Below, in pieces: positions 12,225 to 62,721 of a DNA stretch of 64,000 nucleotides (position 1 is the first letter of the stretch; each line of letters starts with the position of its first letter). Source of the DNA: Macrostomum lignano (lineage: Eukaryota); contig NIVC01000722.1 of NCBI GenBank assembly GCA_002269645.1, positions 157,963 to 221,962 on the forward strand, read 5' to 3'. The notes under the pieces were generated by a model, which saw only the letters and a list, made by a program, of their open reading frames with translations, was not told the origin of the DNA and did not search any database. The position numbers and the translations under genes were made by a program.

Positions 12225-14235
12225 ATCTACTGATTCTAAATACCCCATCTACTGATTCTGAATACCCCATCTATTGATTCTGAATACCACATCTACTGAT
12301 TCTAAATACCCCATCTACTGATTCTAAATACCCCATCTACTGATTCTAAATACCCCATCTACTGCTTCTAAATACCCCATCTACTGCTTCTAAATACCCC
12401 ATCTACTGATTCTAAATACCCCATCTACAGATTCTGAATACCCCATCTACTGATTCTAAATACCCCATCTACTGACTCTAAATACCCCATCTACTGATTC
12501 TGAATACCTCATCTACTGATTCTGAATACCCCATCTACTGATTCTAAATACCCCATCTACTGATTCTAAATACCCCATTTACTGGTTCTAAATCCTTTAC
12601 TGATTCTAAATACCCCATCTACTGATTCTAAATACCCCATCTACTGATTCTGAATACCCCATCTACTGATTCTGAATACCCAATTTACTGATTCTAAATA
12701 CCCCATCTAATGATTCTGAATACCACATCTACTGATTCTAAATACCCCATCTACTGATTCTGAATACCCCATCTACTGATTCTAAATACCCTATCTACAG
12801 ATTCTGAATACCCCATCTACTGATTCTAAATACTCCATCTACTGATTCTAAATACCCCATCTACTGATTCTGAATACCCCATCAACTGATTCTAAATACC
12901 CCATCTACTGATTCTAAATACCCCATCTACTGATTCTAAATACCCCATCTACTGATTCTAAATACCCCATCTACTGATTCTAAATACCCCATCTACTGAT
13001 TCTAAATACCCCATCTACAGATTCTGAATACCCCATCTACAGATTCTGAATACCCCATCTACAGATTCTAAATACCCCATCTACTGATTCTAAATACCCC
13101 ATCTACTGATTCTGAATACCCCATCTACTGATTCTGAATACCCCATCTACTGATTCTGAATACCCCATCTACTGATTCTAAATACCACATCTACTGATTC
13201 TAAATACCCCATCTACTGATTCTGAATACCCCATCTACTGATTCTGAATACCCAATTTACTGATTCTAAATACCCCATCTACTGATTCTAAATACCCCAT
13301 CTACAGATTCTGAATACCCCATCTACTGATTCTAAATACCCCATCTACTGACTCTAAATACCCCATCTACTGATTCTGAATACCCCATCTACTGATTCTG
13401 AATACCCCATCTACTGATTCTGAATACCCCATCTACTGATTCTAAATACCCCATTTACTGATTCTAAATCCTTTATTGATTCTAAATACCCCATCTACTG
13501 ATTCTAAATACCCCATCTACTGATTCTGAATACCCATCTACTGATTCTGAATACCCAATTTACTGATTCTAATACCCCATCTACTGATTCTGAATACCAC
13601 ATCTACTGATTCTGAATACCCCATCTACTGATTCTAAATACCCTATCTACTGATTCTGAATACCCTATCTACTGATTCTAAATACCCATCTACTGATTCT
13701 AAATACCCCATCTACTGATTCTAAATACCCCATCTACTGATTCTAAATACCCCATCTACTGATTCTAAATACCCCATCTACTGATTCTAAATACCCCATC
13801 TACTGATTCTAAATACCCCATCTACTGATTCTAAATACCCCATCTACTGATTCTAAATACCCCATCTACAGATTCTAAATACCCCATCTACAGATTCTGA
13901 ATACCCCATCTACAGATTCTGAATACCCCATCTACTGATTCTAAATACCCCATCTACTGATTCTGAATACCCCATCTACTGATTCTGAATACCCCATCTA
14001 CTGATTCTGAATACCCCATCTACTGATTCTGAATACCCCATCTACTGATTCTAAATACCCCATCTACTGATTCTAAATACCCCATCTACTGATTCTGAAT
14101 ACCCCATCTACTGATTCTAAATACCCCATCTACTGATTCTAAATACCCATCTACTGATTCTGAATACCCATCTACTGATTCTGAATACCCATCTACTGAT
14201 TCTAAATACCCCATCTACTGATTCTAAATACCCCA
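12225..14235. repeat. 22-bp intronic minisatellite (CTACTGATTCT[A/G]AATACCCCAT), about 90 copies
   Basis: Fills essentially all of CCDC148 intron 3. Confidence 0.98.
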
Positions 14236-14314
14236 TTTACGTGTTTCTTCAAGAAGCGCCCATTCACTTTCTCCATACACATTTAATACCCATCTAAATA
14301 TCCCCTGGACGCAC

Positions 14315-14767
14315 CTTCTCGCACAATATCCTCCTCCTCGTGCTGCCAGGCCTGAGCAAAGGTGGCCTCAATTTTCACAAGCAGTTCGGCTCGGGCCCGG
14401 CGCCAACTAGCGGCCAGCACGTGGCGCCGTTCGCACCAAGCGCGCCAGGCCGTCAGCCAGTCGCCGTGGTCGGCCAGCTGCTGCCGGGTCCTGGCCGGAA
14501 ACGTCCGCTCCAGCCGGTCGGCGCACAGGCTGTGCCGATTGAACACGACCGGGCCAGTCAGGTATTCGTCTCTGATCAGTTCGAATAGCCTGTGCTCAGC
14601 TTCCGGCCAGCCGCCGAATGGCGCTTTAGCCAGGGTGGTCGAGAATTTCTCTCGAAGCTCGGCTAGACGCTCCAGATAGCGCTGATCAAGCAGGATGAAC
14701 TCCTGCAGGGCTTCCGCTTTTAAATCGTCCGACGGGCACTCCAGATCCCAGGCCTCCTCTGGTATGC
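14315..14767 (-). CDS. CCDC148: CCDC148 coding exon 3
   Basis: LECPSDDLKAEALQEF...DRLERTFPARTRQQL; acceptor gacag|GC (phase 1), donor GAAG|gtgcgt (phase 1). Confidence 0.88.
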
Positions 14768-14799
14768 CTGTCATTGTTTAACGGGAGGACAGAGCTTGT

Positions 14800-15300
14800 C
14801 TTTGTTCCCGTCGCTGAAGTCTTTGTTCCCGTCTGCTGAATCTTTGTTCCTATCTATGGAAGTCTTTGTTCTTGTCTGCTGAAGTATTTGTTCCCGTCTG
14901 CTGAAGTCTTTGTTCCCATCTATGGAAGTCTTTGTTCCCGTCTGCTGAAGTCTTTGTTCCCATCTATGGAAGTCTTTGTTCCCGTCTGCTGAAGTCTTTG
15001 TTCCCATCTATTGAAGTCTTTGTTTGTTCTTGTCTGCTGAAGTCTTTGTTCCCGTCGAGGAAGTCTGTTCCCATCTATGGAAGTCTTTGTTCCCGTCTGC
15101 TGAAGTCTTTGTTCCCATCTATGGAAGTCTTTGTTCCCGTCTGCTGAAGTCTTTGTTCCCATCTATTGAAGTCTTTGTTTGTTCTTGTCTGCTGAAGTCT
15201 TTGTTCCCGTCGAGGAAGTCTGTTCCCATCTATGGAAGTCTTTGTTCCCATCTACCGAAGTCTTTGTTCCCATCTATGGAAGTCATTGTTCCCATCTACA
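14800..15300. repeat. 22-bp minisatellite, alternating GAAGTCTTTGTTCCCGTCTGCT / GAAGTCTTTGTTCCCATCTATG
   Basis: Tandem dimeric units just inside CCDC148 intron 2. Confidence 0.95.
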
Positions 15301-16559
15301 GTGGGCACTTTAGGCGTAGAAGCAATGCAAGGGGCGTTAGAGTTCCAACCCGCGAAAGTTCTTTGCTACTTTTCCTCACTAATGCGAAACTTTTCACCAC
15401 TTTTCGGAACTTATCAGTATAGGAAATGTTTAGTTTCGTGGTTTGCCATGCGTAGGCCAAAATTTCCATGATTGGAAATTTCGCAGTATGAGCCATAGAT
15501 AAGAGGACAGAAAAAGTTAATTCATAGCCAACTGTCGGAATTGATTGCAAATTGTTTGAATTGATTGCAAAGTGTCGGTTTCTCGTGGTAGCTTGTTTGC
15601 TTTGTTTGAAAATTGTCGCTTTTGAAAGCACATTTGTCGGAATTGAATGCACGTCCGGCCAAGAACTACCATAAACTGTCTGAATTGAATGAAAAGATTT
15701 TGACTTTGATTGCACTTTTGCCAAAATAGAATGGAAAAAAGTGTAGAAGGCCGCCATAAAAGTGCGGCTGGACTTGGTGGTGGACATTTAATGTGATTGA
15801 ATGGCGCCGTTTTGCGTCTTGTGAGACTTGCGAATGTATTTCTTTATTTTCTTTACGTACCTATGTAGCACTAAGAGTTGTAGCACTTTTTGGACATGTG
15901 CGGGACAATTTTTTTTTTTTTTAAAACTCTCGACTGTGTTTTTAACCATTCAAATTTTAAAACCTAAATTCTAAACCTAAAAACCTAATATGACAAGAAG
16001 GACACTACGTCACGCTATTGGTGTGGGCAGCAAATCAGTGAATGCTCAGAAGCTGGCGCATCGGTTTACAGAGGTGGCATGCCGGCACAGAACGATAACA
16101 ATATTGACTGGTTGACGACGTCATAGTCGGAATGGTGCCAACAAGACCCACGTCCCCAGCCGCCCCGACTTCTCCTCGTGCCATAGACAGGTCGGAGCTG
16201 GCCATGGAAATATTCTGGTCGGATGAGCCACTGGCAACCCGGATAGCGGAGGCTGCATCCGCGTCACCAGAGGTGAAGTGGCTACCAGAAGCCCTGCCTC
16301 CTCTGTTTACTCCGTGTCACCAGAGCGCTAGCGGGACAAGTGTCAGACTTTTTGGGGGGGGAGCTGGACTTATTGAGTGAAGAATCAGGCGCTGAGGTGG
16401 CATCGGCGCAGGGATGAGAGCGACTATGAGTCGGAGTAGTGAAATATTTCTCTTAGGCAGTGGAAATTGTCCTGGCATCCGTCATCATTCTTGTTATAGC
16501 TTGCATCCGCGACTACAGCAATGGCATGGAACAAAAACCCTTTCCACCTGACCTGCGAC

Positions 16560-17010
16560 TGTAGCATCAAGTTGCTCGACCTCCGCAAAGCCTACCCGCG
16601 CGTCAATAAACCGGCGTTGTGGCAACTCCTTACGCACTACGGAATGCCAGCGACGGCTATCGACAAGCTACGAGATCTGCACGAGGCAACGGCGTATGTG
16701 GTCATCTCTGACGAAGAAAAAAGCACACCCTCCTACCCACAGCGGGGACTGAGAGAAGGATGTGCCACATCGCCGGTACTGTTCAACATATACCACCAAG
16801 CCGCTATACGTCGTGCCAAGAAAGAAAGGCCGCAGCCGACGGAACCGACCAAACTTTTGGAATTCGCTGGACGTGTAGGTCAGGACATAGCCTCCCCCCC
16901 GCAACTCGCAGACAAGTACGAGGAAACGACGACAAGAACCATCGTCGTCGGAGCTACGAACGAAATTGAGCAAGGGACGAAGATCATGAAGGAAGCAATG
17001 AAGGAATTCG
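16560..17010 (+). mobile_element. Degenerate non-LTR (LINE, RTE-like) reverse transcriptase fragment
   Basis: LLDLRKAYPRVNKPALWQLL..YGMP and RGLREGCATSPVLFNIY match LINE RT motifs (DLxKAFD, GxRQGCxxSPxLFN); no YADD motif follows. Confidence 0.8.
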
Positions 17011-17146
17011 ATTTTATTTTATTACGTTTAGCAGATTATTAGCCCGGCCCAACCGCATATCTACGGCTTAGTGACGACCAATTTGTCTTATTATACCCTC
17101 AAGGAAATGGTCTCACGCACAAGCCTGAATGATTTCAAATATTTAG

Positions 17147-17437
17147 GACCACACTCGTGTTGAAATTCGAGATGTATGCACGGCCATCATCACAACTCTT
17201 CCGGGCCTTCGCGACAGTTCAGACGACGGCCTCCGATTTTGGCGCATAAAATTGAGCCGGCGGTTAAAAGAACTCCGCGGCAAGATCCTATCAGAATGTA
17301 GCAGTCCTGCCGTGCAAAAGAGCCGCGAGAAGTTCGCACGCAAACGCAAGCAAATAGATAAGACCGAAGGCACGAGCGCTAACAGTGATGGCATGGCACT
17401 TGTGGATGATGATGAGGGAGGCAATTATGAAAATTAA
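17147..17437 (+). pseudogene. Exon-like fragment resembling SAMD3-like / transposon-associated proteins
   Basis: After tttag| reads DHTRVEIRDVCTAIITTLPGLRDSSDDGLRFWRIKLSRRLKELRGK; similarity recalled from memory only. Confidence 0.3.
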
Positions 17438-18074
17438 GATCTAAGTGCAGATGAAGAACCAGCTGCTAAAAGCGTCCATCTGGGCACCTGCGAGGCCGAC
17501 GACAATCCTTCGAAGCACGAGGAGGCCAGGCTTTTTCTTAACGCAAACTTCCGTTTCTTTAGAGCCTGGAAGATACAGACGACGACGACCAAAAGCTGAA
17601 GGCTTCAGTTTGCCTTCTTATCTGAAGGCTTCAGTTTGCCTTCTTATCTGAAGGCTTCAGTTTGCCTTCTTATCTTATTGGACGCCTGTGATGATGCGAC
17701 CCATTGGTCATTTTTTTCACCCGATCTGCCCGTCCGCATTGTTCGACAGGATGATGTCTGGCGTGGTGTCGTTAATGGAGCGCACTTGCGACTACATTAT
17801 CTGATGCGTTGCGTTAAATTGAACACGGTGCAGAGTGGTTTCGTCACTAAATTTTTTTTGTGTAATTTCATTATAAAAGGTTTAGGGTCACTTATTATTA
17901 ATTAGCGCAATGTTAATCGCAATTTAAAAAATGCGCTGCCTGCAATTACAAAGTAATAAATTATGAGGCTAAGATGCAAAGCGAAGACTATATATGACTT
18001 GTGATTTATATAATAAATACTTGAATTTCCAATGCAGTAAGCGCCTGCATCCAAAGACTGAACTGCTGGTCAGT

Positions 18075-18268
18075 ATTTGTGAATCATCGTCTGTCACACC
18101 CACTTTACTTCCCAGTAAACACTGGTACCCTTTGTAAGCAGGGTAAATTGAAACAGTATGGGATTAAGTGTCTTGAATAATTCAACAAATTATTAGCCTG
18201 CGTGAGCTAGGATTCGAACCCGTAACCTTAGGGCCACAAGTACACCACGCTAATTGCAATAGGCCATA
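18075..18268 (-). mobile_element. Degenerate tRNA-derived SINE
   Basis: Minus-strand B-box GGTTCGAATCC (18210-18220), A-box-like TGGCCTATTGCAATTAGCG near 18248-18266, and a GGTACC...TAAGTGTCTTG body typical of invertebrate SINE2 families. Confidence 0.6.
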
Positions 18269-19130
18269 AGTAACTCCCTATAACCTAATATATCTGTACT
18301 ATAGTAATTGTAGTCGTTTTGCTTATATGGTTAAAATAACAAAAGAACTTTTGTATGCACTTTTTGTTGAATTTGCGAATTTATATAGCACGTATAATAC
18401 TGACATATTTAGTTTCTAAAATTGCGCTTGTGTTCCACACAGTTTCATTTTCCATTTTCATTTGTCTTGGGCCACTTTCCCATTTGCTTCATCGCGCTTC
18501 CTCGTTGTCCTCTTTATTTCGCTGCGTGTGTGCTTATCTTTTGGGGGAGGCGGTGTGCACTAACGTAAGCAAAAGAGTAGAGATTACTGGTGGAGCAGTG
18601 CACGGCCTGACAGAAGGTAAAGTTACTCAGACCGCTTTTTGCTTCATGATTAAGTCAGCCGGTCAGCAAAGTTTCGGGACTTAGTTGGCATCTTCCCTGT
18701 ACAAGACCTCAATGCAGAGAGGCTCTACATCAGTGCATCCAACAGATGATGCTAGTGCTGCATAAAATTTGTTTCTCGGTCGTCAGACGCTTCTATACTT
18801 GTTGTGTAGTTGGTTTGCATCCGTACATGTACATACAGGTAACAGATATGTACATCTGTTTTCCAATATCGATTTGTCACTGGCTGGAGTATAAAGTCAG
18901 AATGCCAACTTGAGCTAAAGGTCGTATTTACCCCAAATCGGTCAGTCTGACTTTCTCAACACAACACAAAAACACTGTTTCTATGTTAAGGACGTCTTGA
19001 ACTTAGTGTCACTAATTCACTATTTCACTAATTCACAAAAGGAATTCGTGTGCCCAAGTTTTCTGCCAATTATGCAAGAGTTGTCGAGGGCACTTTTTGC
19101 CGACGTTAAACACATCGACATTGAAGCTGA

Positions 19131-19625
19131 CAAGCCTGGAAAGATGGCGCACAAACCAACTGGCGCCATTCTGCAACCCAACAGAATCGAAAACCCACTC
19201 GCCGTTAACACTTTTCCACGAGTCCACTATCAGCGCCCGCAATTCCGTGTACTACGGCTATTGTGAGACTGCAAGGAGTCGTGAAAATATGTCTGTAGTT
19301 GTAGAATGTCCTGAACGTCAGAATAACGACAATCGGCAAGCACAAGAGGGAAATCAGCCGCGATGAACCTGTTCGTTTATCGTTAAATTGGAAACTTGGT
19401 TTGTGATGACGTACAGTTGTGTGAGTTATTTTTTTATTTGTAGTTGTGTTGAGTTGTGTGAGGGAGGTTGAAAGGAAGTGGGGAAGGGATGTGCATTGTC
19501 GCGATGGTCTTTGTTGCTTGCGTACGGTACTTGCTAAATATATGGAAGCGACTGGCTTTTTAGGAGCCTCAATTTTTCTTCTGCAGTAGACACGGTAGAC
19601 AAAATGATTAAGACTCGTAAGTGCT
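19131..19625. repeat. 495-bp direct duplication, left copy (flanks the Gypsy element)
   Basis: Matches 29128-29622 with one substitution seen by eye. Confidence 0.95.
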
Positions 19626-19630
19626 GTAAG

Positions 19631-20484
19631 TGTAGTGACTGGCTGCTACTGGTTATTCAGCAGCATTCACTAGCTTTCCTTATGAGTGCTGTGATCCGCT
19701 GCACAGTATCTCAGTCCACCTGAGCTAGTGAGAGAGTTACCCTGTGCTGGGCCTAAGTGTTTACTGCCCGATGACTCATCGCCTGAGCGGGCGCGGGCAG
19801 CCACACTCAATGCCTTCCCACTCGCGCTGAGGAGGCGTAGCAGGATGACTCATCACCTGCGCGGAGTGTAAGGGCTGCCTAGAGGGAGTAAACAGGATGA
19901 CTCATCCGCCCACGTTTCTATTTTTAGCACAGACTAAGCACGTGACTGTGCACGCACTCTGTGCGTGGCCGCTGACCTTGAGTCACGCCACTGCTGCGTG
20001 ACAGGGTTGCCTTATTTGGAAGTTGGCCTTGGATCACGCGTCGTTCGCATGATTCCAATGCCCAAATAAGGAAGTTTCACGCGCTCACCGCATGAAACTC
20101 ACGTGACTTTTGGGGGTCAGCTCGGCTATAAATACGGAGCATCTGCGAGCCATTTTTCTCCAGACTGCGTCGTCTCGCGGAGCATTGTGGCTAACTCGTG
20201 AAGCCTCTGCCTCCGAGCTCTCCTCTCTCATTTCAGGTTTTACAGGTTTCAGGTCCGAGCAGCATTCAACTAAGACGATCGACTGTCGAGACATTTTCAG
20301 ATTTGGCCTTTGCTCCGAGTGTCTTCGTTAATTTTATTTTCAGGTGACGGATAGACAACTCTGCCGACGCGTCGAGTCCGCACACCAAGGTGGCACTGGC
20401 AGCAACCCTACCAAGTAACGGCAACGTTTTAGGTTCATTTTTCAGGCAAATCGTTAACACCAGAAGCAAAGGGCAAACGTTACA
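19631..20484 (+). repeat. 5' LTR, 854 bp (TG...CA)
   Basis: Starts TGTAGT, ends GTTACA before the PBS; TATAAATA at 20127-20134. Confidence 0.93.
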
Positions 20485-20485
20485 C

Positions 20486-20509
20486 TGGTGGCACAGCGGT
20501 GAGATTCGA
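20486..20509 (+). other. Primer-binding site, tRNA-Leu-like
   Basis: TGGTGGCA(CA)GCGGTGAGATTCGA versus the recalled tRNA-Leu complement TGGTGGCAGCGGTGGGATTCGA; 1 nt after the LTR. Confidence 0.7.
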
Positions 20510-20697
20510 GATTCGAGACAAAGGATTTGAGATTCGAGATTCGAGACAAAGGATTCGAGATTCGAGACAAAGGATTCGAGATACGGGATACAACAAGCAA
20601 GCAGGAGAACGTTACCGAATCGACGTCAACGTCACTCAACTATCACCCTTTCGGACACGTCATCAGTCACGCCTACCACGACTAAGTCAGCATCAAG

Positions 20698-21876
20698 ATG
20701 TCTCACGACAGTGATCGAGAAGATCTCATCGGTGATCAGCAGCACACGCGTCAGGACAACGGAAACTCCGCCGCAGCTGCTGCAGGTTCGCCCATACCAT
20801 GTGGTTTAAGATTTAATTTTAGAGACGAATCAAGAGAGGAGGAGGAAGATCCATTTGCAGGACTCAACAACCTCGGACGTGACACCAACCCGGACATGAT
20901 CCGCAGGATGCTGCAGGCCATGCAACGTCAGCTCGATCTACAGCCTAAGAAGCAAGTCAAGATGAAGAGCTATACGCCATCGCAGGACATCCGCGTTTGG
21001 TTAAAGGCTTTCGACCTACGATGCGAGGCAGAAGATCTACAGGATGAAGACGACAAGAAGGCCCAATTACTGGCGAATTTAGACTTAAATTCGGCCTACG
21101 CCGCGGTACTTCGCATGAGGCTGCCCGACCGCATCAGCTATCGACAGCTTCAGCAACGACTAATAGAGAGATTCGCACGACTCTCAGGACCAGACGAATA
21201 TCGAGAAGAATTCAGAGGTCGCAGCCAGCGCAAGAACGAATCAACGGAAGATTACGCAGATGCTCTGCAGGAGCTAGGAGAGCAAGCCTTCCCTTGGCTC
21301 GAGTCTCGCCATCTAGAGCAAGAATTGATTGACCAGTTCCTGCGCGGGATCCGCACGTCATCAGACTGCCGAGAGAAACTTTTCTGGATCCGACCTACGA
21401 CACTCAGCGAAGCCTTGCGAGCACTGAAGAGGATGGAACTAGCCAAAGACCTGGCTCATCGTTCGAAGGAGCCCCCGGTCAGAATGTTGGACGGGGAGGG
21501 ACAAGCCTCAAAGGAGCCCAACAACAGCGCCCTCTCGAAGTTGGAGAAAGTCGTTGAGCAACAAGCCGCAATGATGCAGCAGCAGCAGCATCTGCTCAAC
21601 ACGTTGGCTCAGCAAGTCACAGCCAATCAAGTGATCGGTCAAGCGAACCAACCGCCGCACTACACGTGCTACGAGTGTAATCAAGAAGGACACAAGGCGA
21701 GAGATTGTCCGTACAGACGCCAATCATCTCAGCAGTTTACGGGAAACGGCCGGCCGGAGGACGTAAACGGCAACGCCCCCCGAGCTCCAGCCCAGGCTAT
21801 GCAGCCGACACCGAACACGCCCCGGAAGAGTATGGCTCCGCAGCCGCGGCAGCTGACTCGTCCGAGTCGTCAGTAA
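20698..21876 (+). CDS. gag: Gag (Ty3-type capsid plus one CCHC zinc knuckle), 392 aa
   Basis: EEFRGRSQRKNESTEDYADALQEL...LIDQFLRGI capsid motifs; CYECNQEGHKARDC. Confidence 0.93.
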   Translation: MSHDSDREDLIGDQQHTRQDNGNSAAAAAGSPIPCGLRFNFRDESREEEEDPFAGLNNLGRDTNPDMIRRMLQAMQRQLDLQPKKQVKMKSYTPSQDIRVWLKAFDLRCEAEDLQDEDDKKAQLLANLDLNSAYAAVLRMRLPDRISYRQLQQRLIERFARLSGPDEYREEFRGRSQRKNESTEDYADALQELGEQAFPWLESRHLEQELIDQFLRGIRTSSDCREKLFWIRPTTLSEALRALKRMELAKDLAHRSKEPPVRMLDGEGQASKEPNNSALSKLEKVVEQQAAMMQQQQHLLNTLAQQVTANQVIGQANQPPHYTCYECNQEGHKARDCPYRRQSSQQFTGNGRPEDVNGNAPRAPAQAMQPTPNTPRKSMAPQPRQLTRPSRQ

Positions 21877-24800
21877 ACGAGGAAACGTTGGAAGGAGGTT
21901 TCGTGGACGCCTCCTTTGTAAATACTGTCCATGCGCGTGACGCCGACCCATTTATTACAGGACGAGTGGCTCGACGAGAGGTCGCCTTTCTGCTAGACAG
22001 CGGAAGCAGAAGAAACTTCCTCGGAGCGTCCACTTGGGCCGCCATTAGGCGTCGTTCACCACGTTGTATAGTCGCACCTGCTTATCCTAACCGAGTCGCT
22101 ATGTACGACGGGACCGAGTTAAGTCTCGCCGCCAAGGTTATCCTATCAATTGAATTCGGGGACTATGTCGCGGAAACCGAATTCTTCGTCGCCGAAGGAG
22201 ACTGTGAAAATCTTTTAGGAATCGATTTCATGCGGAGTCACTGCCAAGGACTGGACTTCCAGCAAGGAATGCTCACATTCCGACAAGGCACCCGGCTTCC
22301 CGTACGCTATTCAAGGAGAGAACTAAAGGCCTGCCGAGTGTACGTCGCTGAAAAATGCACTCTGCCGCCTCAATGTTCCTGCCTCGTCGCCATTAAACTA
22401 GCCGAAGGTCATCAGCAGAACTACGGTTCACCGATGATTATCGAACCGCTCAAATCAGGACTGCGAGCGAAGCATCACCAGTTAGACGCAGCCCCAGTCC
22501 TGCACACGATGACAGAAGGTCGAGGAGTGATGGAAGTACTCAACCCATCAGACACGGAGGTTCACTTGCGTCGCAACATGCTAATGGGAGTAGCCACGCC
22601 ACTGATGACCCAGGACCTCGAGTACTTCAGCGAGTCGAATGAGCCAGAAGTCCGTCAACTGATAACGACTGAAGAAACGACTGACAGTTGGATCAACGAG
22701 GTCGACATCGGAGACCAGCTGAACAGCCACCAGAAGCACCAGGTTCAAGAAGTACTCAAGGAATGCGAGAAGGCATTCTCCCTAACTCCGTTGGACCACG
22801 GACTGACACACCTGGTAACTCATGAGATTGTGCTCACCGATTCGACGCCAATCGCGATTCCTCCTCGCCGGATACCTCCGCATCTACGACCGCAACTGGA
22901 TCAGATGCTCGACGATATGCTGAAGAAAGGCATCATTCGGCCAACGTACTCCAGTTACAATTCGCCGATGATCCTAGTGCCAAAGAAGGACAAGACGATT
23001 CGCATCGTGCACGACTTCAGAGCGATCAACGATGTGACGCTGAAGCACCCGTACCCGATCCCGCACATTCAGGAAACTTTCGCCAAACTCAAAGGAGCGC
23101 AGTGGTACTCAAGCCTCGACCTGGTACAAGGCTTCTACCAGATTCCTCTCCGTGAGGAAGACCAGGACATCACTGCCTTCTCCGTGCTCGATCGTGGACA
23201 ATTCTGCTTCAAGGTGCTACCAATGGGACTCACCGACAGCCCCGGATCGTTCCAGCGTTGTATCAATCAACTGCTAGAAGGACTAGCACCGCAGGCCGCT
23301 CTTGGTTACATGGACGACATCGTTGTACACGCAGTGACGTTCGAAGATCACTTAGACCGTCTACGACAAGTCCTAAACCGAATTATAGCCGCCAACTTGA
23401 AGCTAAAACCGAAGAAATGCCATTTATTTAAAAAGGAGCTCCATTATCTAGGCCACGTGATTACGCCGGAAGGCCTACGGACAAGCGAAGACAAAATCGC
23501 GCAGATACGCAGTTGGCCAACGCCTCGGACTGTTCGTCAACTACGAAGCTTTCTTGGTCTCGCCAATTACTACAAGAAGTTCGTCGAAGATTACTCGGGC
23601 ATCGCGGCCCCGTTACACGCATTGACACGCAAGGACCTGCAAGGATTCCAGCGTCATTGGACGCAGCAGCATCAGACTGCCTTTGAGACTCTGAAGAGCA
23701 AGCTATGCTCAACCGAAGTACTCGCCCTCCCAGAGTTCAATGAGGATCCGAAGGTCAAGTTCATCCTGGATACCGACGCATCCGACACCCAAATCGGTGC
23801 ATGTCTAGGACAACTACAATCCGATGGAATAGAACGACCGATCGCCTTTTTCAGTCGCAAGCTCCGAGACCCGGAAGTTCGCTACACGGTCACCAAGCGG
23901 GAGCTACTGGCTATTGTCGATGCCATGCGACACTTTCGAGAATACTTAATAGGAAAGAAGTTTGAAGTAAGAAGTGACCATAAGGCCTTGCTCTGGCTGT
24001 TACGTCAGACTGAATCTACAGGGATTCTAGGTCGATGGGTCCAGAGGATCAGCGAATTTCAGTTCACCATCTCCCATCGCAAGGGTACTGACCACACCAA
24101 CGCCGACGCGCTATCAAGACGCCCGGACACGCCTCCGTTAGAATGCGATTACGGAGTACTCCAAGACGTCGACGCTGTCCTGGCTTGCCACCGCGAGGAG
24201 ACAGGAGACACCACTCAGCGTGAGTGTCGCCGCATTAAGGAAACTGATCCGGGCATCGATTCAGAGGCCACCGCACCAGCAGCCCTCTCAATCAAGACCC
24301 ACAATCGCGATCCAGAGGCAGAGACCGACTTGGACAACGAACCAGAGGCCACCGCACCTGCAGCCCTCTGCCGAGTTCTCCACTGTTCACGTCGAAGCCA
24401 GGAGACAGCAAGCTTGGATGAAGACACAGAGGCCACCGCACCAGCAGCCCTCTGCCGAGCCACCCACGCTCGCCGTCACTTCAAGGAGACCAATCTGGAT
24501 GAAGTTCAAGAGGCCACTGTACCCTCAGCCCTCTCCAACGACAGCCATCAGGTCTACCTACAGAGTTTGGAGACTGACTTGGACGAAGATTCGGAGGCCA
24601 CCGCTCCAGCAGCCCTCCCAGTCGAGCGCCACTGCTCAGATCTCGGTCGAAAATTTACCGCTGAGGAGTCCCGCTGCTCTTCCATGAGCCGACAGACTCA
24701 GCAGGTCGAGCCGTCTCGTTGCTCTTCCATGAGCCTGCAGCCGACCACCCATTATCAACGCGTGGACGATATGTCTTGCGCCATGACGCGCCTTCGTCCT

Positions 24801-26831
24801 ACGCCGAAACCGACGCGTTCCTATGCAGAGGTGACGAAGTCTGCATACGAGGAAGACAGAGCACGTACAGCTGAAGCATCTCCCCAGCTCGCAACTTCTC
24901 AAAGTCTGCCGCGCTGCCGAGCATTGCTTACGGATCATCTGAAGCCGCCTTTGCCGCGCGACAAGCTCATCAAAGCTCAACAGGATGACCCAGCTATTGG
25001 CTACGTTTACAAGTTGATCAAGGAGAATCAACCGAAACCAGCGTTTGACGATCAATTACGACTTAGCAGAGAGCAACGGAATCTGCTAGGATACTACGAG
25101 TTACTGTTCCTCGAGCGAGATCTACTCATGATCAACATGACGGAAAAGGACACTCCACCGAAGATTGTCTTACCAGTAGCTCTCGACAACGAAGTTTTTA
25201 ACGAGCTCCACAATTCGCCTTTAGCAGGACACCAAGGACAGCGAAAGACCGCCCAACGTGTGCGCGAAAGATTCTGGCGAACAGGTCTAGTCCGAGCCAT
25301 TGAGACCTACGTCAGCAAATGCCGAACCTGCCTAGAGAGCAAGTCACGACGAAAACAGCAAGTGCCAGTGCAGAGCTTTCCAGTCTGCGAAGTTTTTGGA
25401 AGACTTCACATGGATGTGATCGGACCAATTGCGCAACCGTCCAAAGGAGGTCATCGATACATCCTGACACTCTGCTGTGCGACATCAAAGTTTCCGATAG
25501 CTTATCCGATGAGAAATCAGAAAGCTAAAACCGTTATCCGATTACTACAGGACCGATTTATTCCAGAATACGGAGTTCCAGCTTGGATTCACACGGACCA
25601 AGGCACGAACTTTACAGGAAACGCCTTCAAGAAGTTCTGTGATCTCTACGCTATCAGGCACACGACAACGACGCCGTACAACCCAGCATCCAACGGACTG
25701 GTAGAAAATCTGAACAAGCAGATCAAGAGCATTCTGACATGTCTCCTCGAGCACGATCATCGCGATTGGGACACATTTCTGCCAGCGTGCATGATTGCTC
25801 TTCGATCCAGCGTTCATCCAGTCACAGGCTATACGCCTTACTTCTTAGTCTATGGCCGAGAATACAGGATGCCTCTCGACAATTCATTGAAGCTACTCCC
25901 GGAGTACGCTAACCTGCCTGATTACGTCGCAGAATTTCAGCAACGCCTCAAGCACGCCACGGACCTCGCCAAGGAACGGCTAGGCCTGCATCAGCAAGCG
26001 CGAGACGAACACTACGAGAACCGACCAGCAGCTAAGAAGCTACAGCCGGGAGATCTCGTCTTCTTGAACAACCCGGTCCTACACGAAGATGAAGCAGCAA
26101 AGTTCCACAGGCCAAGGAGATCGTTGTACGAAGTGGTGGAAAGCAAAGGAGAGGTCGTCTACAAGATTCGACGGAAGGTTCGACACCCTCGAGAACGACC
26201 GGACGAGATGGTAGTTCATCGCCGGAACCTCCTCCTTGTGCCCACTTCAGATTATCCAATTGCAGATCTCGAAGGGCCAGCTGAACCGAAGAAGCATCGC
26301 CGAGTTCATCAGGCTGACGCCGGAGCTGCGACACTCCCCGCCATCTCTGAGGACTCTGACGAAGAAGACGACCTGGACACGAGACCCGCCTATCGCTGGC
26401 GACTCCGATCAGCTGCTCAGCCAGGCGCGCGTCCAACCGAAGTCCGCATCCAGGAACCTGAAGTTATGGAGAGGAGAGTAGAGCTTGAGTCACTGCTGTA
26501 TGATTCTTGCGACGCTCCATCCGCTCCTACAGTTGAACAGCAGAGGCGACCTGAAATTGAAATTAGCGACAGGATTAACCTAGACTCTGATAGGAATAAT
26601 CAATGTAATAGTCATGTTATGTCGGCCAATTTGCCAAATAATAGTCATGTTTTGTCGGCCAATTTGCCATCAACTAGTCAAGTCGAATGGGCCGTCAAGG
26701 ACAGGCCAGTTAGGGCTCGAAGGGAACCTGACCGCTTGGTTCTAAAACCAAAGTCAAAGTCCTACTTGAGCCGGTTAGTTAACTTTTGCCGCCGGCCTCG
26801 TGCCTGTTCCAGCGCTGAAAAGCAAAACTAA
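21705..26831 (+). CDS. pol: Pol (PR-RT-RNaseH-repeat linker-IN) in the -1 frame relative to gag
   Basis: LLDSGS; LDLVQGFYQI, LPMGL, YMDD; TDASD, ELLAIV, DHKAL; HNSPLAGH..CRTC, HMD, HTDQG, NGLVE; no stop codons. Confidence 0.97.
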   Translation: MSVQTPIISAVYGKRPAGGRKRQRPPSSSPGYAADTEHAPEEYGSAAAAADSSESSVNEETLEGGFVDASFVNTVHARDADPFITGRVARREVAFLLDSGSRRNFLGASTWAAIRRRSPRCIVAPAYPNRVAMYDGTELSLAAKVILSIEFGDYVAETEFFVAEGDCENLLGIDFMRSHCQGLDFQQGMLTFRQGTRLPVRYSRRELKACRVYVAEKCTLPPQCSCLVAIKLAEGHQQNYGSPMIIEPLKSGLRAKHHQLDAAPVLHTMTEGRGVMEVLNPSDTEVHLRRNMLMGVATPLMTQDLEYFSESNEPEVRQLITTEETTDSWINEVDIGDQLNSHQKHQVQEVLKECEKAFSLTPLDHGLTHLVTHEIVLTDSTPIAIPPRRIPPHLRPQLDQMLDDMLKKGIIRPTYSSYNSPMILVPKKDKTIRIVHDFRAINDVTLKHPYPIPHIQETFAKLKGAQWYSSLDLVQGFYQIPLREEDQDITAFSVLDRGQFCFKVLPMGLTDSPGSFQRCINQLLEGLAPQAALGYMDDIVVHAVTFEDHLDRLRQVLNRIIAANLKLKPKKCHLFKKELHYLGHVITPEGLRTSEDKIAQIRSWPTPRTVRQLRSFLGLANYYKKFVEDYSGIAAPLHALTRKDLQGFQRHWTQQHQTAFETLKSKLCSTEVLALPEFNEDPKVKFILDTDASDTQIGACLGQLQSDGIERPIAFFSRKLRDPEVRYTVTKRELLAIVDAMRHFREYLIGKKFEVRSDHKALLWLLRQTESTGILGRWVQRISEFQFTISHRKGTDHTNADALSRRPDTPPLECDYGVLQDVDAVLACHREETGDTTQRECRRIKETDPGIDSEATAPAALSIKTHNRDPEAETDLDNEPEATAPAALCRVLHCSRRSQETASLDEDTEATAPAALCRATHARRHFKETNLDEVQEATVPSALSNDSHQVYLQSLETDLDEDSEATAPAALPVERHCSDLGRKFTAEESRCSSMSRQTQQVEPSRCSSMSLQPTTHYQRVDDMSCAMTRLRPTPKPTRSYAEVTKSAYEEDRARTAEASPQLATSQSLPRCRALLTDHLKPPLPRDKLIKAQQDDPAIGYVYKLIKENQPKPAFDDQLRLSREQRNLLGYYELLFLERDLLMINMTEKDTPPKIVLPVALDNEVFNELHNSPLAGHQGQRKTAQRVRERFWRTGLVRAIETYVSKCRTCLESKSRRKQQVPVQSFPVCEVFGRLHMDVIGPIAQPSKGGHRYILTLCCATSKFPIAYPMRNQKAKTVIRLLQDRFIPEYGVPAWIHTDQGTNFTGNAFKKFCDLYAIRHTTTTPYNPASNGLVENLNKQIKSILTCLLEHDHRDWDTFLPACMIALRSSVHPVTGYTPYFLVYGREYRMPLDNSLKLLPEYANLPDYVAEFQQRLKHATDLAKERLGLHQQARDEHYENRPAAKKLQPGDLVFLNNPVLHEDEAAKFHRPRRSLYEVVESKGEVVYKIRRKVRHPRERPDEMVVHRRNLLLVPTSDYPIADLEGPAEPKKHRRVHQADAGAATLPAISEDSDEEDDLDTRPAYRWRLRSAAQPGARPTEVRIQEPEVMERRVELESLLYDSCDAPSAPTVEQQRRPEIEISDRINLDSDRNNQCNSHVMSANLPNNSHVLSANLPSTSQVEWAVKDRPVRARREPDRLVLKPKSKSYLSRLVNFCRRPRACSSAEKQN
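21741..21747 (+). promoter_or_regulatory. -1 ribosomal frameshift slippery heptamer G GGA AAC
   Basis: X XXY YYZ in the correct gag phase inside the gag/pol overlap; slippage joins to pol GKRPAGGRK. Confidence 0.8.
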
Positions 26832-26836
26832 AAACA

Positions 26837-27973
26837 ATGACGGGAAAAGAAAACAAGAGGCGCCGAGATCGGGAACCGTCCCGGACACCCTCGCCAGCCA
26901 GCGGCCGAAAGCACACTCGACCCTCGCGGCCCGCCAGCAGAATTCGAACTATCCCAGTGCCCAGCCAGGATCCGGCTCGCCGTCGACGGAGCCGCTGGGA
27001 CGAGCGTCCGCGCCAAGAAGCCAATATAGAAGTACGCAGGCTGGCACCGCTGCAGCTACCTCACCTCGACGATCGCCTCACAGTCGCCAGAGAGCGGGCC
27101 GCCGCCATTAGGCTCCGGCTCGATCCGCCCCAGGCGATTATGGCCGATGCCCGGTTGCCAGCTGCCGACAAGGCAACCTCGCCAGAACGGCCTGGCTCTT
27201 CTCCGACGCAGCCACCGGCCGAGCCACCGGTGCCTAGCTCGCGGGAACCACCGCGCCCACACGACGCCGAAAACGCGCTTGATTTGATTGGGAGCTTATC
27301 GAGCTCTCTGCAGGAAGAGCCAAGCGAAGAGCTGCTTCCAGCACTTCAAGAGCTCCTGGCCCCTGACGCTCAGGCTGCCCCGAACGCAGCCCTGCCAGCT
27401 CCTTTCGACCCGCGAGTGGACGTACTGGACACGCCGCCTCAGCCGCAATCACCACCGCCGGCGCAGTATCTGGGCGTGCTATCGCCGCCGCCACAGCTTG
27501 ACATCATCAACCTGGATGACTACAGGACGCCGCCCACGCCGCCAACACCGCGCTTCCGCCGACCGTCGCCCGTGCCATCGCCGCCCCGCTTATTCAATCG
27601 AACGGAACTAGCGGAGGCCATCAGCGTCGCCATCCGGACTCGGCCTCAGCAAAGGGATGCAGCGACCCAAAGTGACTGCCTAAGCGTTGTACAAGAGGGG
27701 GCCATCATCGCTCTTACGGAGCTCCTAGTAGCAGCGGGGCTCAAAGGGCAGCTCTGCCGCAGGTGGCCTGACCGCATACAAGAGGAGTTCCGTGCGGCCG
27801 CGCCTGAGGAAAGGCGACGGGCCATCAAGGAGATCGGCCGTAGAACCGCCGAAGCCCTGCCGCCGCATCCGCCGCACGCCACTACACTCGAACTGGCGAT
27901 CCTCAAGCTTCTCTTTTTCCTGGGACAAGCCAACGATGTGCCGAGCCCTTTTGGCAAATTTGTGCGTTATTAA
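26837..27973 (+). CDS. ORF3: 378-aa Arg/Pro-rich protein of unknown function at the env position
   Basis: Intact ORF, ATG 5 nt after the pol stop in an AAAACAATG context; no signal peptide or convincing transmembrane anchor visible. Confidence 0.8.
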   Translation: MTGKENKRRRDREPSRTPSPASGRKHTRPSRPASRIRTIPVPSQDPARRRRSRWDERPRQEANIEVRRLAPLQLPHLDDRLTVARERAAAIRLRLDPPQAIMADARLPAADKATSPERPGSSPTQPPAEPPVPSSREPPRPHDAENALDLIGSLSSSLQEEPSEELLPALQELLAPDAQAAPNAALPAPFDPRVDVLDTPPQPQSPPPAQYLGVLSPPPQLDIINLDDYRTPPTPPTPRFRRPSPVPSPPRLFNRTELAEAISVAIRTRPQQRDAATQSDCLSVVQEGAIIALTELLVAAGLKGQLCRRWPDRIQEEFRAAAPEERRRAIKEIGRRTAEALPPHPPHATTLELAILKLLFFLGQANDVPSPFGKFVRY

Positions 27974-28337
27974 CAACATCAAATTTTGGCAATAGTAACA
28001 CTTTTACATTTACAAAAAAATTGCAATCAACAACATCAAATCTTTTCAATCTATTTCAAATTTTTTAATCACTTCAAAAATAATCAAAATAATCTTTATG
28101 CAAAATAATCATCTTAAATACGCATTTTGCTCCCTTTAACTTTTACAAAATAAGCAATCAATCATGTAGTAGGTATAATTCAACGCTGCCTTACTCAAGT
28201 ACACCATCTCTTTGTAGGCGCTTCATTTTACGGTCAGCTTTATTTGTAATAAATACTCATTATCCAGTGGCCTTGTTAGAGCCGATTTTTGTTTTCAAAT
28301 AAAATTGAATCATCGTTCCGCTGCTGCAATTTAATTT

Positions 28338-28349
28338 GGACGGGGAGAG
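28338..28349 (+). other. Polypurine tract (GGACGGGGAGAG)
   Basis: Immediately precedes the TG of the 3' LTR. Confidence 0.85.
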
Positions 28350-29127
28350 TGTAGTGACTGGCTGCTACTGGTTATTCAGCAGCATTCACTAGCTTTCCTT
28401 ATGAGTGCTGTGATCCGCTGCACAGTATCTCAGTCCACCTGAGCTAGTGAGAGAGTTACCCTGTGCTGGGCCTAAGTGTTTACTGCCCGATGACTCATCG
28501 CCTGAGCGGGCGCGGGCAGCCACACTCAATGTCTTCCCTGAGAGGCGTAGCAGGATGACTCATCACCTGCGCGGAGTGTAAGGGCTGCCTAGAGGGAGTA
28601 AACAGGATGACTCATCCGCCCACGTTTCTATTTTTAGCACAGACTAAGCACGTGACTGTGCACGCACTCTGTGCGTGGCCGCTGACCTTGAGTCACGCCA
28701 CTGCTGCGTGACAGGGTTGCCTTATTTGGAAGTTGGCCTTGGATCACGCGTCGTTCGCATGATTCCAATGCCCAAATAAGGAAGTTTCACGCGCTCACCG
28801 CATGAAACTCACGTGACTTTTGGGGGTCAGCTCGGCTATAAATACGGAGCATCTGCGAGCCATTTTTCTCCAGACTGCGTCGTCTCGCGGAGCATTGTGG
28901 CTAACTCGTGAAGCCTCTGCCTCCGAGCTCTCCTCTCTCATTTCAGGTTTTACAGGTTTCAGGTCCGAGCAGCATTCAACTAAGACGATCGACTGTCGAG
29001 ACATTTTCAGATTTGGCCTTTGCTCCGAGTGTCTTCGTTAATTTTATTTTCAGGTGACGGATAGACAACTCTGCCGACGCGTCGAGTCCGCACACCAAGG
29101 TGGCAGCAACCCTACCAAGTAACGGCA
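28350..29127 (+). repeat. 3' LTR, missing its last 61 bp
   Basis: Collinear with 19631-20423 apart from 9-nt and 6-nt net deletions; lacks the equivalent of 20424-20484. Confidence 0.93.
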
Positions 29128-29622
29128 CAAGCCTGGAAAGATGGCGCACAAACCAACTGGCGCCATTCTGCAACCCAACAGAATCGAAAACCCACTCGCC
29201 GTTAACACTTTTCCACGAGTCCACTATCAGCGCCCGCAATTCCGTGTACTACGGCTATTGTGAGACTGCAAGGAGTCGTGAAAATATGTCTGTAGTTGTA
29301 GAATGTCCTGAACGTCAGAATAACGACAATCGGCAAGCACAAGAGGGAAATCAGCCGCGATGAACCTGTTCGTTTATCGTTAAATTGGAAACTTGGTTTG
29401 TGATGACGTACAGTTGTGTGAGTTATTTTTTTATTTGTAGTTGTGTTGAGTTGTGTGAGGGAGGTTGAAAGGAAGTGGGGAAGGGATGTGCATTGTCGCG
29501 ATGGTCTTTGTTGCTTGCGTACGGTACTTGCTAAATATATGGAAGCGACTGGCTTTTTAGGAGCCTCAATTTTTCTTCTGCAGTAGACACGGTAGACAAA
29601 ATAATTAAGACTCGTAAGTGCT
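29128..29622. repeat. 495-bp direct duplication, right copy
   Basis: Begins exactly where the 3' LTR breaks; matches 19131-19625. Confidence 0.95.
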
Positions 29623-30106
29623 TAGTCTTAATTTAACGTCTAGGAATTTATATGGCACATGAAGACTCTCTTTACCTCGCGATTTGGAACTTCGGTTCAC
29701 GATAACGGCAATGCCCGCATTTCATTTAAATAAACAACTACCTGCTTTACAACAACGATTGTGTCCGTTAATATATCATCTCTTTGACTGCTGCGACTTC
29801 ATCTACAATGTCATGTTAGGAAATATTACAATCTAATCAGACAACATCAAGGCTCGCTTTGACTGGTTTTTACAGCTCAATGACGTCATTTCTACGCCCC
29901 GTTCATTTAGTCCGGACAAACAAAACCAGTTGAGTCTCCGAGGGAACTCCCACTGCAGTCTTCGACTTCAACTTGCTGTTGATAGAGGAGGACTTTTCTA
30001 GCCACAGGAGCACCTCTTTTCAACTGGGTGTCAAAGAGCTTGCAAAAAGGCTCGATATGATGCTCTGCAGGACTCACTGCACGAATCGGCGCGACGTGTA
30101 AGTGCA

Positions 30107-30429
30107 AGAAATCGTAACGCGATTTTTTAACTGATGGCCTCCAGCCTCCATATCTGGCTCCCTGCGATTTTTTCTACTCAAGAAGCTCAAGGAGGTGCTC
30201 AAAGGAACTCGTTTCCCCGGCATAGAAGCTATCAGGAGAGCAAGGACAATGGAACTCCCGGAGAATTCCTTAAGAAGCCTTCCAGTACCGCATGGAGGCG
30301 TGGCGCAGGATAGACAAGTGCATTAAACTCAAGGGAGAACTTTTGAAAGGCAGCTCAGATTCTGCTTGACTTTTGCTGCTGCTAATTTTTTATGAGTTCA
30401 GTCCTGGAGCTTTGGTGACACACCTTGTA
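30107..30429 (+). mobile_element. Mariner (Tc1/mariner) 3' remnant
   Basis: Broken frames give LAPCDF..KKLKEVLKGTRF..IEAIRRA..EAFQ..MEAWRR.DKCIKLKGE; TIR-like end ...GACACACCTTG followed by TA. Confidence 0.85.
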
Positions 30430-30699
30430 TTTACCATAATACGCTCATATACTATCAGAACATTCACACGTCTCTTCTGCATGCTGTTGTAGTCAAATGA
30501 GCTCACAGTATGCGGCTTTATCCTTCCTTATTGTGTTACAGAAAGTTTAATGTTGTCGCCTTATTGAAACATTTTGCACGCAATAATATGAATTTGTATG
30601 TACTTCTGTTGTCAATTAAATACAATAGATTCACTCGTTTCCTGTCTACACTTGAAAATCAGTTGATTTTGTTTTTGGCGCGCGTATTAGTAAAATATT

Positions 30700-37268: not shown

Positions 37269-37365
37269 GCTGGGCTATTGTGGCATGCAAATATTTAACA
37301 TTTTTTATGAGGATGTGCATGTATATATTTTTAATTACATTGTATATAAATTAAGTTTTATGCCA

Positions 37366-61300: not shown

Positions 61301-61665
61301 ATCCATTTCCTAGAATCAGATCCCTAATTCCTAGAAAACAATCCATTTCCTAGAATCAGGTCCCTAATTCTTAGCAAACAATCCATTTCCTAGAATCAGA
61401 TCCCTATTTCCTAGAAAACAATCCATTTCCTAGAATCAGGTCCCTAATTCCTAGAAAACAATCCATTTCCTAGAATCAGGTCCCTAATTCCTAGAAAACA
61501 ATCCATTTCCTAGAATCAGGTCCCTAATTCCTAGAAAACAATCCATTTCCTAGAATCAGGTCCCTAATTCCTAGAAAACAATCCATTTCCTAGAATCAGG
61601 TCCCTAATTCCTAGAAAACAATCCATTTCCTAGAATCAGGTCCCTAATTCCTAGGAACCGATCCT
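58365..61665. repeat. 40-bp satellite (TCCTAGAATCAGGTCCCTAATTCCTAGAAAACAATCCATT), about 80 copies
   Basis: Internally dimeric (two TCCTAGAA halves); homogeneous core with diverged edges. Confidence 0.98.
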
Positions 61666-62509: not shown

Positions 62510-62705
62510 GACAATTGAGCACGCTATATGTACCTCTGAGCACACTGTACATATAGTTAAGCACACTATACAATGTACACATACAATTGAGCACACTGTA
62601 CATGTACAACTGAGCACACTACATGTACAACTGAGCACACTGTACAAGTATAATTGAGCACACTGTACATGTACAATTGAACACAATATATATACAATTG
62701 AGCAC
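62510..62705. repeat. 23-bp intronic repeat (TGAGCACACTGTACATGTACAA[C/T])
   Basis: About 8 imperfect units in the USP10 intron. Confidence 0.85.
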
Positions 62706-62721
62706 CCTATCCCCCCTCCAG

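What the first reader, a model, noticed from the sequence alone, without database searches (positions are those of the whole stretch)
19131..29622. Gypsy element flanked by a 495-bp direct duplication with a truncated 3' LTR
Seen: the structure is X-(GTAAG)-LTR-internal-LTR(delta 61 bp)-X', with X and X' differing at one visible base. The left end is an intact TG terminus, while the right junction has 1-nt microhomology and no terminal CA. Established: Gypsy TSDs are 4-6 bp, and one-ended retroviral integrations finished by host repair can create large duplications. Inference: a natural asymmetric integration or a post-insertion tandem rearrangement. An assembly artefact is also possible.
Basis: partly seen in the sequence, partly recalled or inferred. 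Interest (0 to 1): 0.7.

Follow-up and report, generated by a model that had tools for sequence, protein, structure and literature searches.

The report
Gypsy insertion with 496-bp site duplication
A jumping gene in an animal genome sits between two copies of a 496-base host stretch instead of the usual 5-base one, most likely because the cell's repair enzymes finished a botched insertion, an accident already known from retroviruses.

Summary
The structure is in the window as described. An intact-looking Ty3/Gypsy element (gag, -1 frame pol PR-RT-RH-IN) is flanked by X (19130-19625) and X' (29127-29622): 496 bp, 1 mismatch. The 3' LTR lacks 61 bp.

Public contigs (4 runs, 4 studies):
- One run (X1) reproduces the left junction letter for letter.
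- X is native host DNA (joined to the left flank in 4 of 4 runs) and does not travel with the LTR.
- The right junction was seen in 0 of 4 runs, so it is unconfirmed.

- With the shared base, the truncated LTR does end in CA.
- The left junction is not clean. GTAAG(TG) is a local copy of 19617-19623, a templated-insertion-like scar, inside a 10-bp palindrome of the empty site.

Best reading (0.42): one end joined by integrase, the other trimmed and joined by host polymerase and repair, as shown for HIV/ASLV. Rivals: both ends host-joined (0.2), assembly join (0.18), later rearrangement (0.13).

Natural retroviral cases with 61-450 bp duplications are published for HERV-K. This is a new example in a Gypsy element, not a new mechanism.

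The parts
19130..19625 (.). X: left copy of the duplicated host segment (first base shared with the truncated LTR end)
   Evidence: joined to the upstream flank in contigs of 4 of 4 runs (table 8)
19617..19623 (+). GTAAGTG: local template of the junction insert
19626..19630 (+). 5-nt junction insert GTAAG; its last two letters AG equal the two letters before the 3' LTR
   Evidence: present in run X1 contig
19631..20484 (+). 5' LTR, 854 nt, TG...CA
20486..20509 (+). primer-binding-site-like stretch starting TGG, 1 nt after the LTR (resemblance to a tRNA-Leu 3' end is recalled, not tested)
   Evidence: position and TGG start seen in sequence
20698..21876 (+). gag ORF (Retrotrans_gag, zf-CCHC)
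21741..21747 (+). candidate -1 slippery heptamer GGGAAAC, the only XXXYYYZ match in the 196-nt gag/pol overlap
21681..26831 (+). pol frame, 1716 aa open: protease DSG, RT YMDD, RNase H, integrase zinc-binding domain and D,D(35)E
26819..27973 (+). third open frame, 384 aa, 15.6% proline, no Pfam hit
28338..28349 (+). polypurine-tract-like stretch
28350..29127 (+). 3' LTR lacking its last 61 nt; ends ...GGCA with the shared A
29127..29622 (.). X': right copy of the duplicated host segment
29603..29633 (.). 10-bp perfect inverted repeat with 11-nt loop at the X'/right-flank border (the presumed pre-insertion site); the breakpoint and GTAAG lie in the loop

Best explanation
A single, recent, aberrant integration. 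SHOWN: X is host DNA, the element has intact integrase motifs, the left junction exists in one run, and the right end is trimmed by 61 nt with 1 nt of microhomology in the assembly. INFERRED: integrase joined only the left (U3) end, after GTAAG in the loop of a short palindrome. The free right 3' end was trimmed, primed host DNA synthesis about 490 nt upstream of that join, copied X, and was rejoined to the right flank, which gives X'. During the same repair the left top strand slipped and re-copied GTAAG, giving the 9-nt near-duplication GTAAGTGCT-GTAAGTG. The scar contains CT that exists only in the pre-insertion sequence, so it cannot be a later slip of the finished junction.
For: (1) The anatomy equals the published pattern of one normal end, the other truncated, and host DNA duplicated by hundreds to thousands of bp (PMC5041404, passages and Discussion read). 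(2) The left LTR end is exact to the base and integrase has D,D(35)E. (3) X is joined to the left flank in 4 of 4 runs. Depth over X (about 20-50 in X1, X10, X14; 236-327 in X2) is like the flank, while LTR bins are 5-15 times (X1) to over 100 times (X2) higher (the tool warns depth is no copy number). (4) X' equals X at 8 of 8 listed sites where other runs carry other letters, so both copies come from one haplotype lineage, not two alleles. (5) An X2 contig leaves the stretch exactly at 19625 with 68 letters unlaid, as an empty site would (record 28; letters not shown). (6) Weak hints for the right junction in X1: record 1 depth 19.6 implies 15.9 per copy if X is doubled, against 14.9-15.6 for three other listed X1 contigs (11.1 and 18.3 for two more); record 8 begins at the 31-mer ending at 20424, the first base missing from the 3' LTR. 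(7) X/X' (1 in 496) and LTR/LTR (1 in 778 plus 2 indels) are similarly young. (8) A second Gypsy in the same window has an ordinary 5-bp TSD.
Against: (1) The joint 20423->19130 is listed in 0 of 4 runs (table 5, six joints, no cut noted). (2) A graph of the window predicts that X1 record 1 should break at 19130, 19605 and 19629, but it runs through unbroken. Graph cleaning next to a high-copy repeat could explain this (recalled behaviour of such assemblers, not tested). (3) A plain integrase-made end has no insert, so the GTAAG scar needs an added slip step. (4) X1 may be the sample the window came from, so it is not independent. (5) Record 8 lacks the 6-nt duplication of the window's 5' LTR, so it may be another copy.
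Confidence: 0.42

Rival explanations
1. Integrase-independent capture. A full-length cDNA with an unprocessed left end (two PPT-side letters AG still on it) was patched into a staggered break at the palindrome. Both ends were joined by polymerase-theta-like end joining: a templated insert plus 4-nt microhomology AGTG on the left, 61-nt loss plus 1-nt microhomology on the right.
For: GTAAGTG copies 19617-19623; a 5-mer plus TG within 30 nt arises in 0.4% of 200,000 random draws, a 5-mer in 6%. Such short local templated inserts are described as the mark of Pol theta (PMC12426944, passages). AG before TG equals 28348-28349. Integrase-independent Tf1 insertions match the last PPT bases upstream and are proposed to truncate the other end (PMC11042837, abstract and passages). 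The breakpoint lies in one of only 3 inverted repeats with arms of 9 nt or more in 15300-30690.
Against: The AG match has a 1 in 16 chance. Integrase motifs are intact. A 496-nt stagger needs its own explanation. LTR elements are reported to favour palindromic targets anyway (PMC6911290, title in the search listing only).
Confidence: 0.2
2. Assembly artefact at the right side. The left junction is real, but a contig ending inside the 3' LTR was joined to an overlapping empty-site sequence, creating X' and the 61-nt loss.
For: Right junction in 0 of 4 runs. The X1 contig crosses X without the breaks that the window predicts.
Against: No N gap. X' shares X's haplotype at 8 of 8 sites yet differs at one base where X1 confirms the left letter. 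X1 record 8 crosses the LTR end into the PBS at single-copy-like depth and starts at 20424. Contigs drop branches beside repeats. The left junction itself is abnormal and real, so an abnormal right end is not surprising.
Confidence: 0.18
3. Post-insertion rearrangement (pseudo-TSD). A normal insertion with a GTAAG TSD, or an insertion into a pre-existing tandem duplication, was followed by a break in the 3' LTR repaired by copying X.
For: GTAAG would be an ordinary 5-bp TSD, and X' keeps GTAAG before the right flank. The pseudo-TSD model is discussed for HERV-K (PMC5488345, passages). The LTRs show more differences (1 substitution, 2 indels) than X/X' (1 substitution).
Against: It does not explain TGCT-GTAAG at the left junction, whose CT comes from the pre-insertion site, so it needs at least two events. 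No duplicated-X or normal-TSD allele appeared in the listed rows (24 of 183 loose ends and 12 of 45 indels were shown).
Confidence: 0.13
4. Two uncoupled integrase reactions. The right end was processed at an internal (cryptic) CA 61 nt inside the LTR and joined about 495 nt away from the left join.
For: The truncated end reads ...GGCA.
Against: A CA at a junction with one ambiguous base has roughly a 1 in 10 chance (5 CA dinucleotides in 29100-29134). It does not explain the left scar, and the internal end does not resemble the true terminus beyond CA.
Confidence: 0.07

Closest known systems
Aberrant one-ended HIV-1 and ASLV integrations (PMC5041404; passages and Discussion read)
   Same: One apparently normal end; other end truncated; short homology at the aberrant junction; flanking host duplication of hundreds of bp.
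   Different: Those were forced by inhibitors, integrase mutants or mutated ends in cell culture. This is a natural locus of a Ty3/Gypsy retrotransposon with intact catalytic motifs, and the 'normal' end carries a 5-nt templated insert.
HERV-K(HML-2) loci with long target duplications: 21q21.1 (450 bp), 7p21.2 (250 bp), 4q32.1 (206 bp), 6p25.2 (111 bp) (PMC5488345, first part and passages; PMC4422153, passages)
   Same: Natural inherited LTR element flanked by a near-identical host duplication of similar size. 21q21.1 is called a 3'-truncated provirus with a 450-bp duplication. One listed locus has 2 extra nucleotides between duplication and LTR.
   Different: Those are vertebrate endogenous retroviruses; this is a Gypsy element with no env evidence. 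The pre-insertion allele is not sequence-confirmed here.
Integrase-independent insertion of Tf1 in fission yeast (PMC11042837; abstract and passages)
   Same: A Ty3/Gypsy-type element (recalled) inserted with short PPT homology upstream; truncation of the far end proposed.
   Different: There it is Rad52 single-strand annealing, mostly at existing copies. No long host duplication appears in the passages read. Here the PPT match is only 2 nt.
Pol theta templated insertions and tandem duplications (PMC12426944 passages; PMC7368036 listing only)
   Same: Short insert copied from next to the break; minimal microhomology.
   Different: Those concern break repair without a retrotransposon. Pol theta involvement here is untested.

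Membership tests
Ty3/Gypsy LTR retrotransposon | pol order protease-RT-RNase H-integrase | tested here: met
   RVT_1 433-594, RT_RNaseH 689-793, Integrase_H2C2 1165-1223, rve 1240-1335; protease by DSG motif at 105 only, no Pfam hit
Ty3/Gypsy LTR retrotransposon | gag upstream of pol | tested here: met
   Retrotrans_gag E 1.4e-05 and zf-CCHC; pol in -1 frame
Ty3/Gypsy LTR retrotransposon | two direct LTRs, TG...CA, with PBS and PPT inside | tested here: met
   5' LTR complete, TGG-start PBS-like stretch and purine tract present; 3' LTR truncated by 61 nt
Ty3/Gypsy LTR retrotransposon | clade placement by RT phylogeny | not tested
   no tree or homolog search was run
Canonical concerted integrase insertion | 4-6 bp target-site duplication abutting two intact ends | tested here: not met
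   496-nt duplication, 5-nt insert, one truncated end; met by the control element at 38003-42386
One-ended (aberrant) integration | one end truncated or altered with short homology to appended host DNA | tested here: met
   61-nt loss, 1-nt microhomology in the assembly; junction not confirmed in contigs
One-ended (aberrant) integration | large duplication of native host DNA from beside the integration site | tested here: met
   X joined to the left flank in 4 of 4 runs, depth unlike the LTR
One-ended (aberrant) integration | the other end is a clean integrase-made junction | tested here: inconclusive
   LTR end exact, but a 5-nt templated insert precedes it, confirmed in run X1
One-ended (aberrant) integration | insertion and duplication arose in one event (pre-insertion allele has a single X; no intermediate alleles) | tested here: inconclusive
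   X2 contig leaves at 19625, letters not shown; no intermediate allele among the listed rows
One-ended (aberrant) integration | dependence on integrase for one end and host enzymes for the other | not testable with these tools
   needs an experimental transposition system
Element with long terminal or transduced flank (X part of the element) | X accompanies other copies of the LTR | tested here: not met
   X depth near flank depth while LTR depth is far higher; another LTR copy in X1 has an unrelated 255-nt left flank (tables 2 and 7)

The most novel reading that the evidence does not exclude
A full-length, integrase-competent Gypsy cDNA was captured without integrase at a palindrome-associated break in an animal germ line. 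Both ends were joined by templated end joining, the unprocessed PPT-side dinucleotide served as microhomology, and a 496-bp host duplication resulted. If such events recur, LTR retrotransposons are an overlooked source of sub-kilobase duplications that TSD-based annotation misses.
Probability: 0.2. Interest if true: 0.5.

Novelty: new member of a known kind. Interest (0 to 1): 0.3.

Why it matters
It would be a natural, inherited example in a Gypsy retrotransposon of an accident studied mainly in drug-treated or mutant retroviruses and seen at a handful of HERV-K loci. Such insertions duplicate host DNA, escape annotation that demands 4-6 bp TSDs and paired LTR ends, and can revert by X-X' recombination to a false 'empty' allele. 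As a single locus with one unconfirmed junction it changes no current view. Its value is as a pointer to count such events family-wide.

Tried and rejected
- No whole genome is held for this window, so other copies and their TSDs could not be catalogued.
- A 27-nt LTR pattern found 0 matches in metagenome contigs.
- Earlier findings of the scan: none by place, sequence or words.
- 'X is part of the element': rejected.
- 'X and X' are two alleles merged': disfavoured, X' equals X at 8 of 8 sites.
- 'GTAAG is a flank carried from a donor locus': disfavoured, because it is a copy of sequence 9 nt upstream.
- 'GTAAG begins an upstream tandem unit': the other GTAAG sites in 14000-19700 are 18037, 18134 and 18565, and 17000-19129 has no second match in the window.
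- 'Later slippage at the finished junction': rejected, because the first copy holds CT found only in the pre-insertion sequence.
- Third frame as env: no Pfam hit and only one mildly hydrophobic window (1.7); not supported.
- The absence of the right joint in contigs is no proof of absence.
Full report
1. Observation. A self-comparison of the window gives X at 19130-19625 and X' at 29127-29622: 496 nt, no gaps, one mismatch (19606 G, 29603 A). GTAAG follows at 19626-19630. The 5' LTR runs 19631-20484 (TG...CA) and is followed after one base by a TGG-start PBS-like stretch. The 3' LTR starts at 28350 behind a purine tract and stops at 29127, 61 nt short. The LTRs differ by one substitution, a 9-nt indel and a 6-nt tandem indel. 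X has no other match in the window, which holds no N. One correction: with the shared A the truncated LTR ends in CA.

2. The element. Pfam finds Retrotrans_gag and zf-CCHC in the first frame, and RVT_1, RNase H, integrase zinc finger and rve, in that order, in a 1716-aa frame. DSG, YMDD and D,D(35)E are present, pol is in the -1 frame, and a GGGAAAC heptamer lies in the overlap. A third frame of 384 aa is proline-rich with no Pfam hit. This is a young, intact-looking Ty3/Gypsy element. A second Gypsy at about 38003-42386 has an ordinary TTTTT/TTTTT duplication, a control for normal integration in this genome. The host appears to be an animal (cortactin-like gene; many minisatellites); I did not identify it.

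3. Public sequence: what supports the structure. No genome is held. One search listed 18 runs, 8 holding half or more of the sampled words. I laid 4 of them, one per study, on 17900-20530 (all contigs; 40 of 130 substitution rows, 12 of 45 indel rows, 24 of 183 loose ends and 32 of 1797 pieces were shown).
(a) X1 record 1 covers 17900-19677 with no difference, so flank-X-GTAAG-LTR exists, including G at 19606. X1 may be the source sample.
(b) X2, X10 and X14 cross 19130 on alleles with other letters, so X is native to the locus.
(c) Depth over most of X resembles the flank while the LTR is far deeper, and another LTR copy has an unrelated flank, so X does not travel with the element.
(d) An X2 contig stops matching exactly at 19625 and runs on for 68 letters, as an empty site would; its letters were not shown.
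(e) At the 8 listed sites inside X where other runs differ, X' equals X in 8 of 8, so the copies are not two alleles.

4. Public sequence: what goes against it. The joint from 20423 back to 19130 appears in 0 of 4 runs. X1 record 1 does not break at 19130, 19605 or 19629, where a graph of the window predicts branches. Contigs drop rare branches, above all beside deep repeats (recalled, not tested), so this is not decisive. Two weak hints point the other way. Record 1's depth of 19.6 implies 15.9 per copy if X is doubled, near 14.9, 15.6 and 15.6 for three other listed X1 contigs (two more are 11.1 and 18.3, two are deep). Record 8 starts at the 31-mer ending at 20424, the first base the 3' LTR lacks, although it seems to lack the 5' LTR's 6-nt duplication and may be another copy. 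I put the right junction at about 0.8 real.

5. The left junction is not clean. It reads CTC-GTAAGTGCT-GTAAG-TGTAG, while the right border reads CTC-GTAAGTGCT-TAGTC. GTAAGTG repeats 19617-19623; such a match within 30 nt arose in 0.4% (5-mer plus TG) or 6% (5-mer) of 200,000 random draws. The CT in the first copy exists only in the pre-insertion sequence, so the scar formed before or during insertion, not after (inference). AG before TG equals the two bases in front of the 3' LTR, which an unprocessed cDNA end could carry (1 in 16 by chance). The breakpoint lies in the loop of a 10-bp perfect inverted repeat (29603-29633), one of 3 with arms of 9 nt or more in 15300-30690. The last 125 nt or so of X show raised depth in X2, X10 and X14, so the target is probably a small dispersed repeat.

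6. Mechanism. Best (0.42): integrase joined the left end after GTAAG; the free right 3' end was trimmed by 61 nt, primed on host DNA about 490 nt upstream, copied X and was rejoined to the right flank; the left top strand slipped by 9 nt in the same repair. The priming-and-copying steps are those proposed for aberrant HIV-1 and ASLV proviruses (PMC5041404: passages; Discussion). The slip is my addition. Rivals: both ends joined by host repair without integrase (0.2; PMC12426944 passages; PMC11042837 abstract and passages); an assembly join on the right (0.18); later rearrangement or pseudo-TSD (0.13; PMC5488345 passages); two uncoupled integrase events at a cryptic CA (0.07). Together the three 'aberrant insertion' readings hold about 0.7.

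7. Comparison with what is known. It is a member of Ty3/Gypsy by domain order, but not a canonical insertion (TSD test not met). It works like a one-ended integration; membership is partly inconclusive because of the left scar and the unconfirmed junction. Natural parallels are in print. PMC5488345 (first of four parts and passages) lists 8 HERV-K loci with duplications over 10 bp (13-450 bp) among 451 putative TSDs. PMC4422153 (passages) calls 21q21.1 a 3'-truncated provirus with a 450-bp duplication and links such loci to aberrant integration. Long duplications are also routine for some non-LTR elements (10.1101/2022.05.23.493040, passages). I found no report for a natural Gypsy locus in the listings of searches. 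I saw 20 of 83, 0 of 0, 8 of 8, 15 of 74 and 15 of 21 hits and opened few; PMC7497039 was irrelevant. The library lacks most subscription papers, and no supplements were read, so absence from print is not shown.

8. Verdict. The feature is real in the assembly and half confirmed outside it. It is a new example of a known accident, with a tidy junction record. Interest 0.3.

Noticed in passing
window 38003-42386 (-): Second young Gypsy element: about 256-bp LTRs 99.6% identical, one 1307-aa frame with protease-RT-RNase H-integrase, normal 5-bp TSD TTTTT. It lies close to the cortactin-like frame.
   Followed up: yes
window 35802-37274 (-): Uninterrupted 491-aa cortactin-like frame with 8 HS1 repeats and an SH3 domain, in a region otherwise full of minisatellites.
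   Followed up: partly
window 26819-27973 (+): Third frame of the focal element, 384 aa, 15.6% proline, no Pfam family; function unexplained.
   Followed up: partly
window 20452-20530: Depth falls 4- to 15-fold against the preceding LTR bin in all 4 runs, with shared loose ends at 20453 and 20456: most LTR relatives have a different U5 end, so this copy is a minority subtype.
   Followed up: no
window 19500-19625 and 29603-29633: The end of X is moderately repeated in three runs and runs into a 10-bp palindrome; possibly a small dispersed element used as target.
   Followed up: partly
window 18482-18843: Runs X2 and X10 each hold a contig that skips 360 nt here with GC in between: a structural polymorphism just left of X.
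   Followed up: no
window 16500-17042 (+): Reverse-transcriptase fragment (RVT_1, E 3.9e-09), probably a decayed non-LTR element.
   Followed up: no
window 19141-19149: AAGATGGCG inside X resembles a YY1-type start-site motif (recalled, untested); if X holds a promoter, the event duplicated it.
   Followed up: no
window 58396-61654 and elsewhere: 40-bp minisatellite of about 81 copies; 87 tandem-repeat rows in the window.
   Followed up: no
window 62702-63589 (+): Ubiquitin carboxyl-terminal hydrolase (UCH) frame.
   Followed up: no
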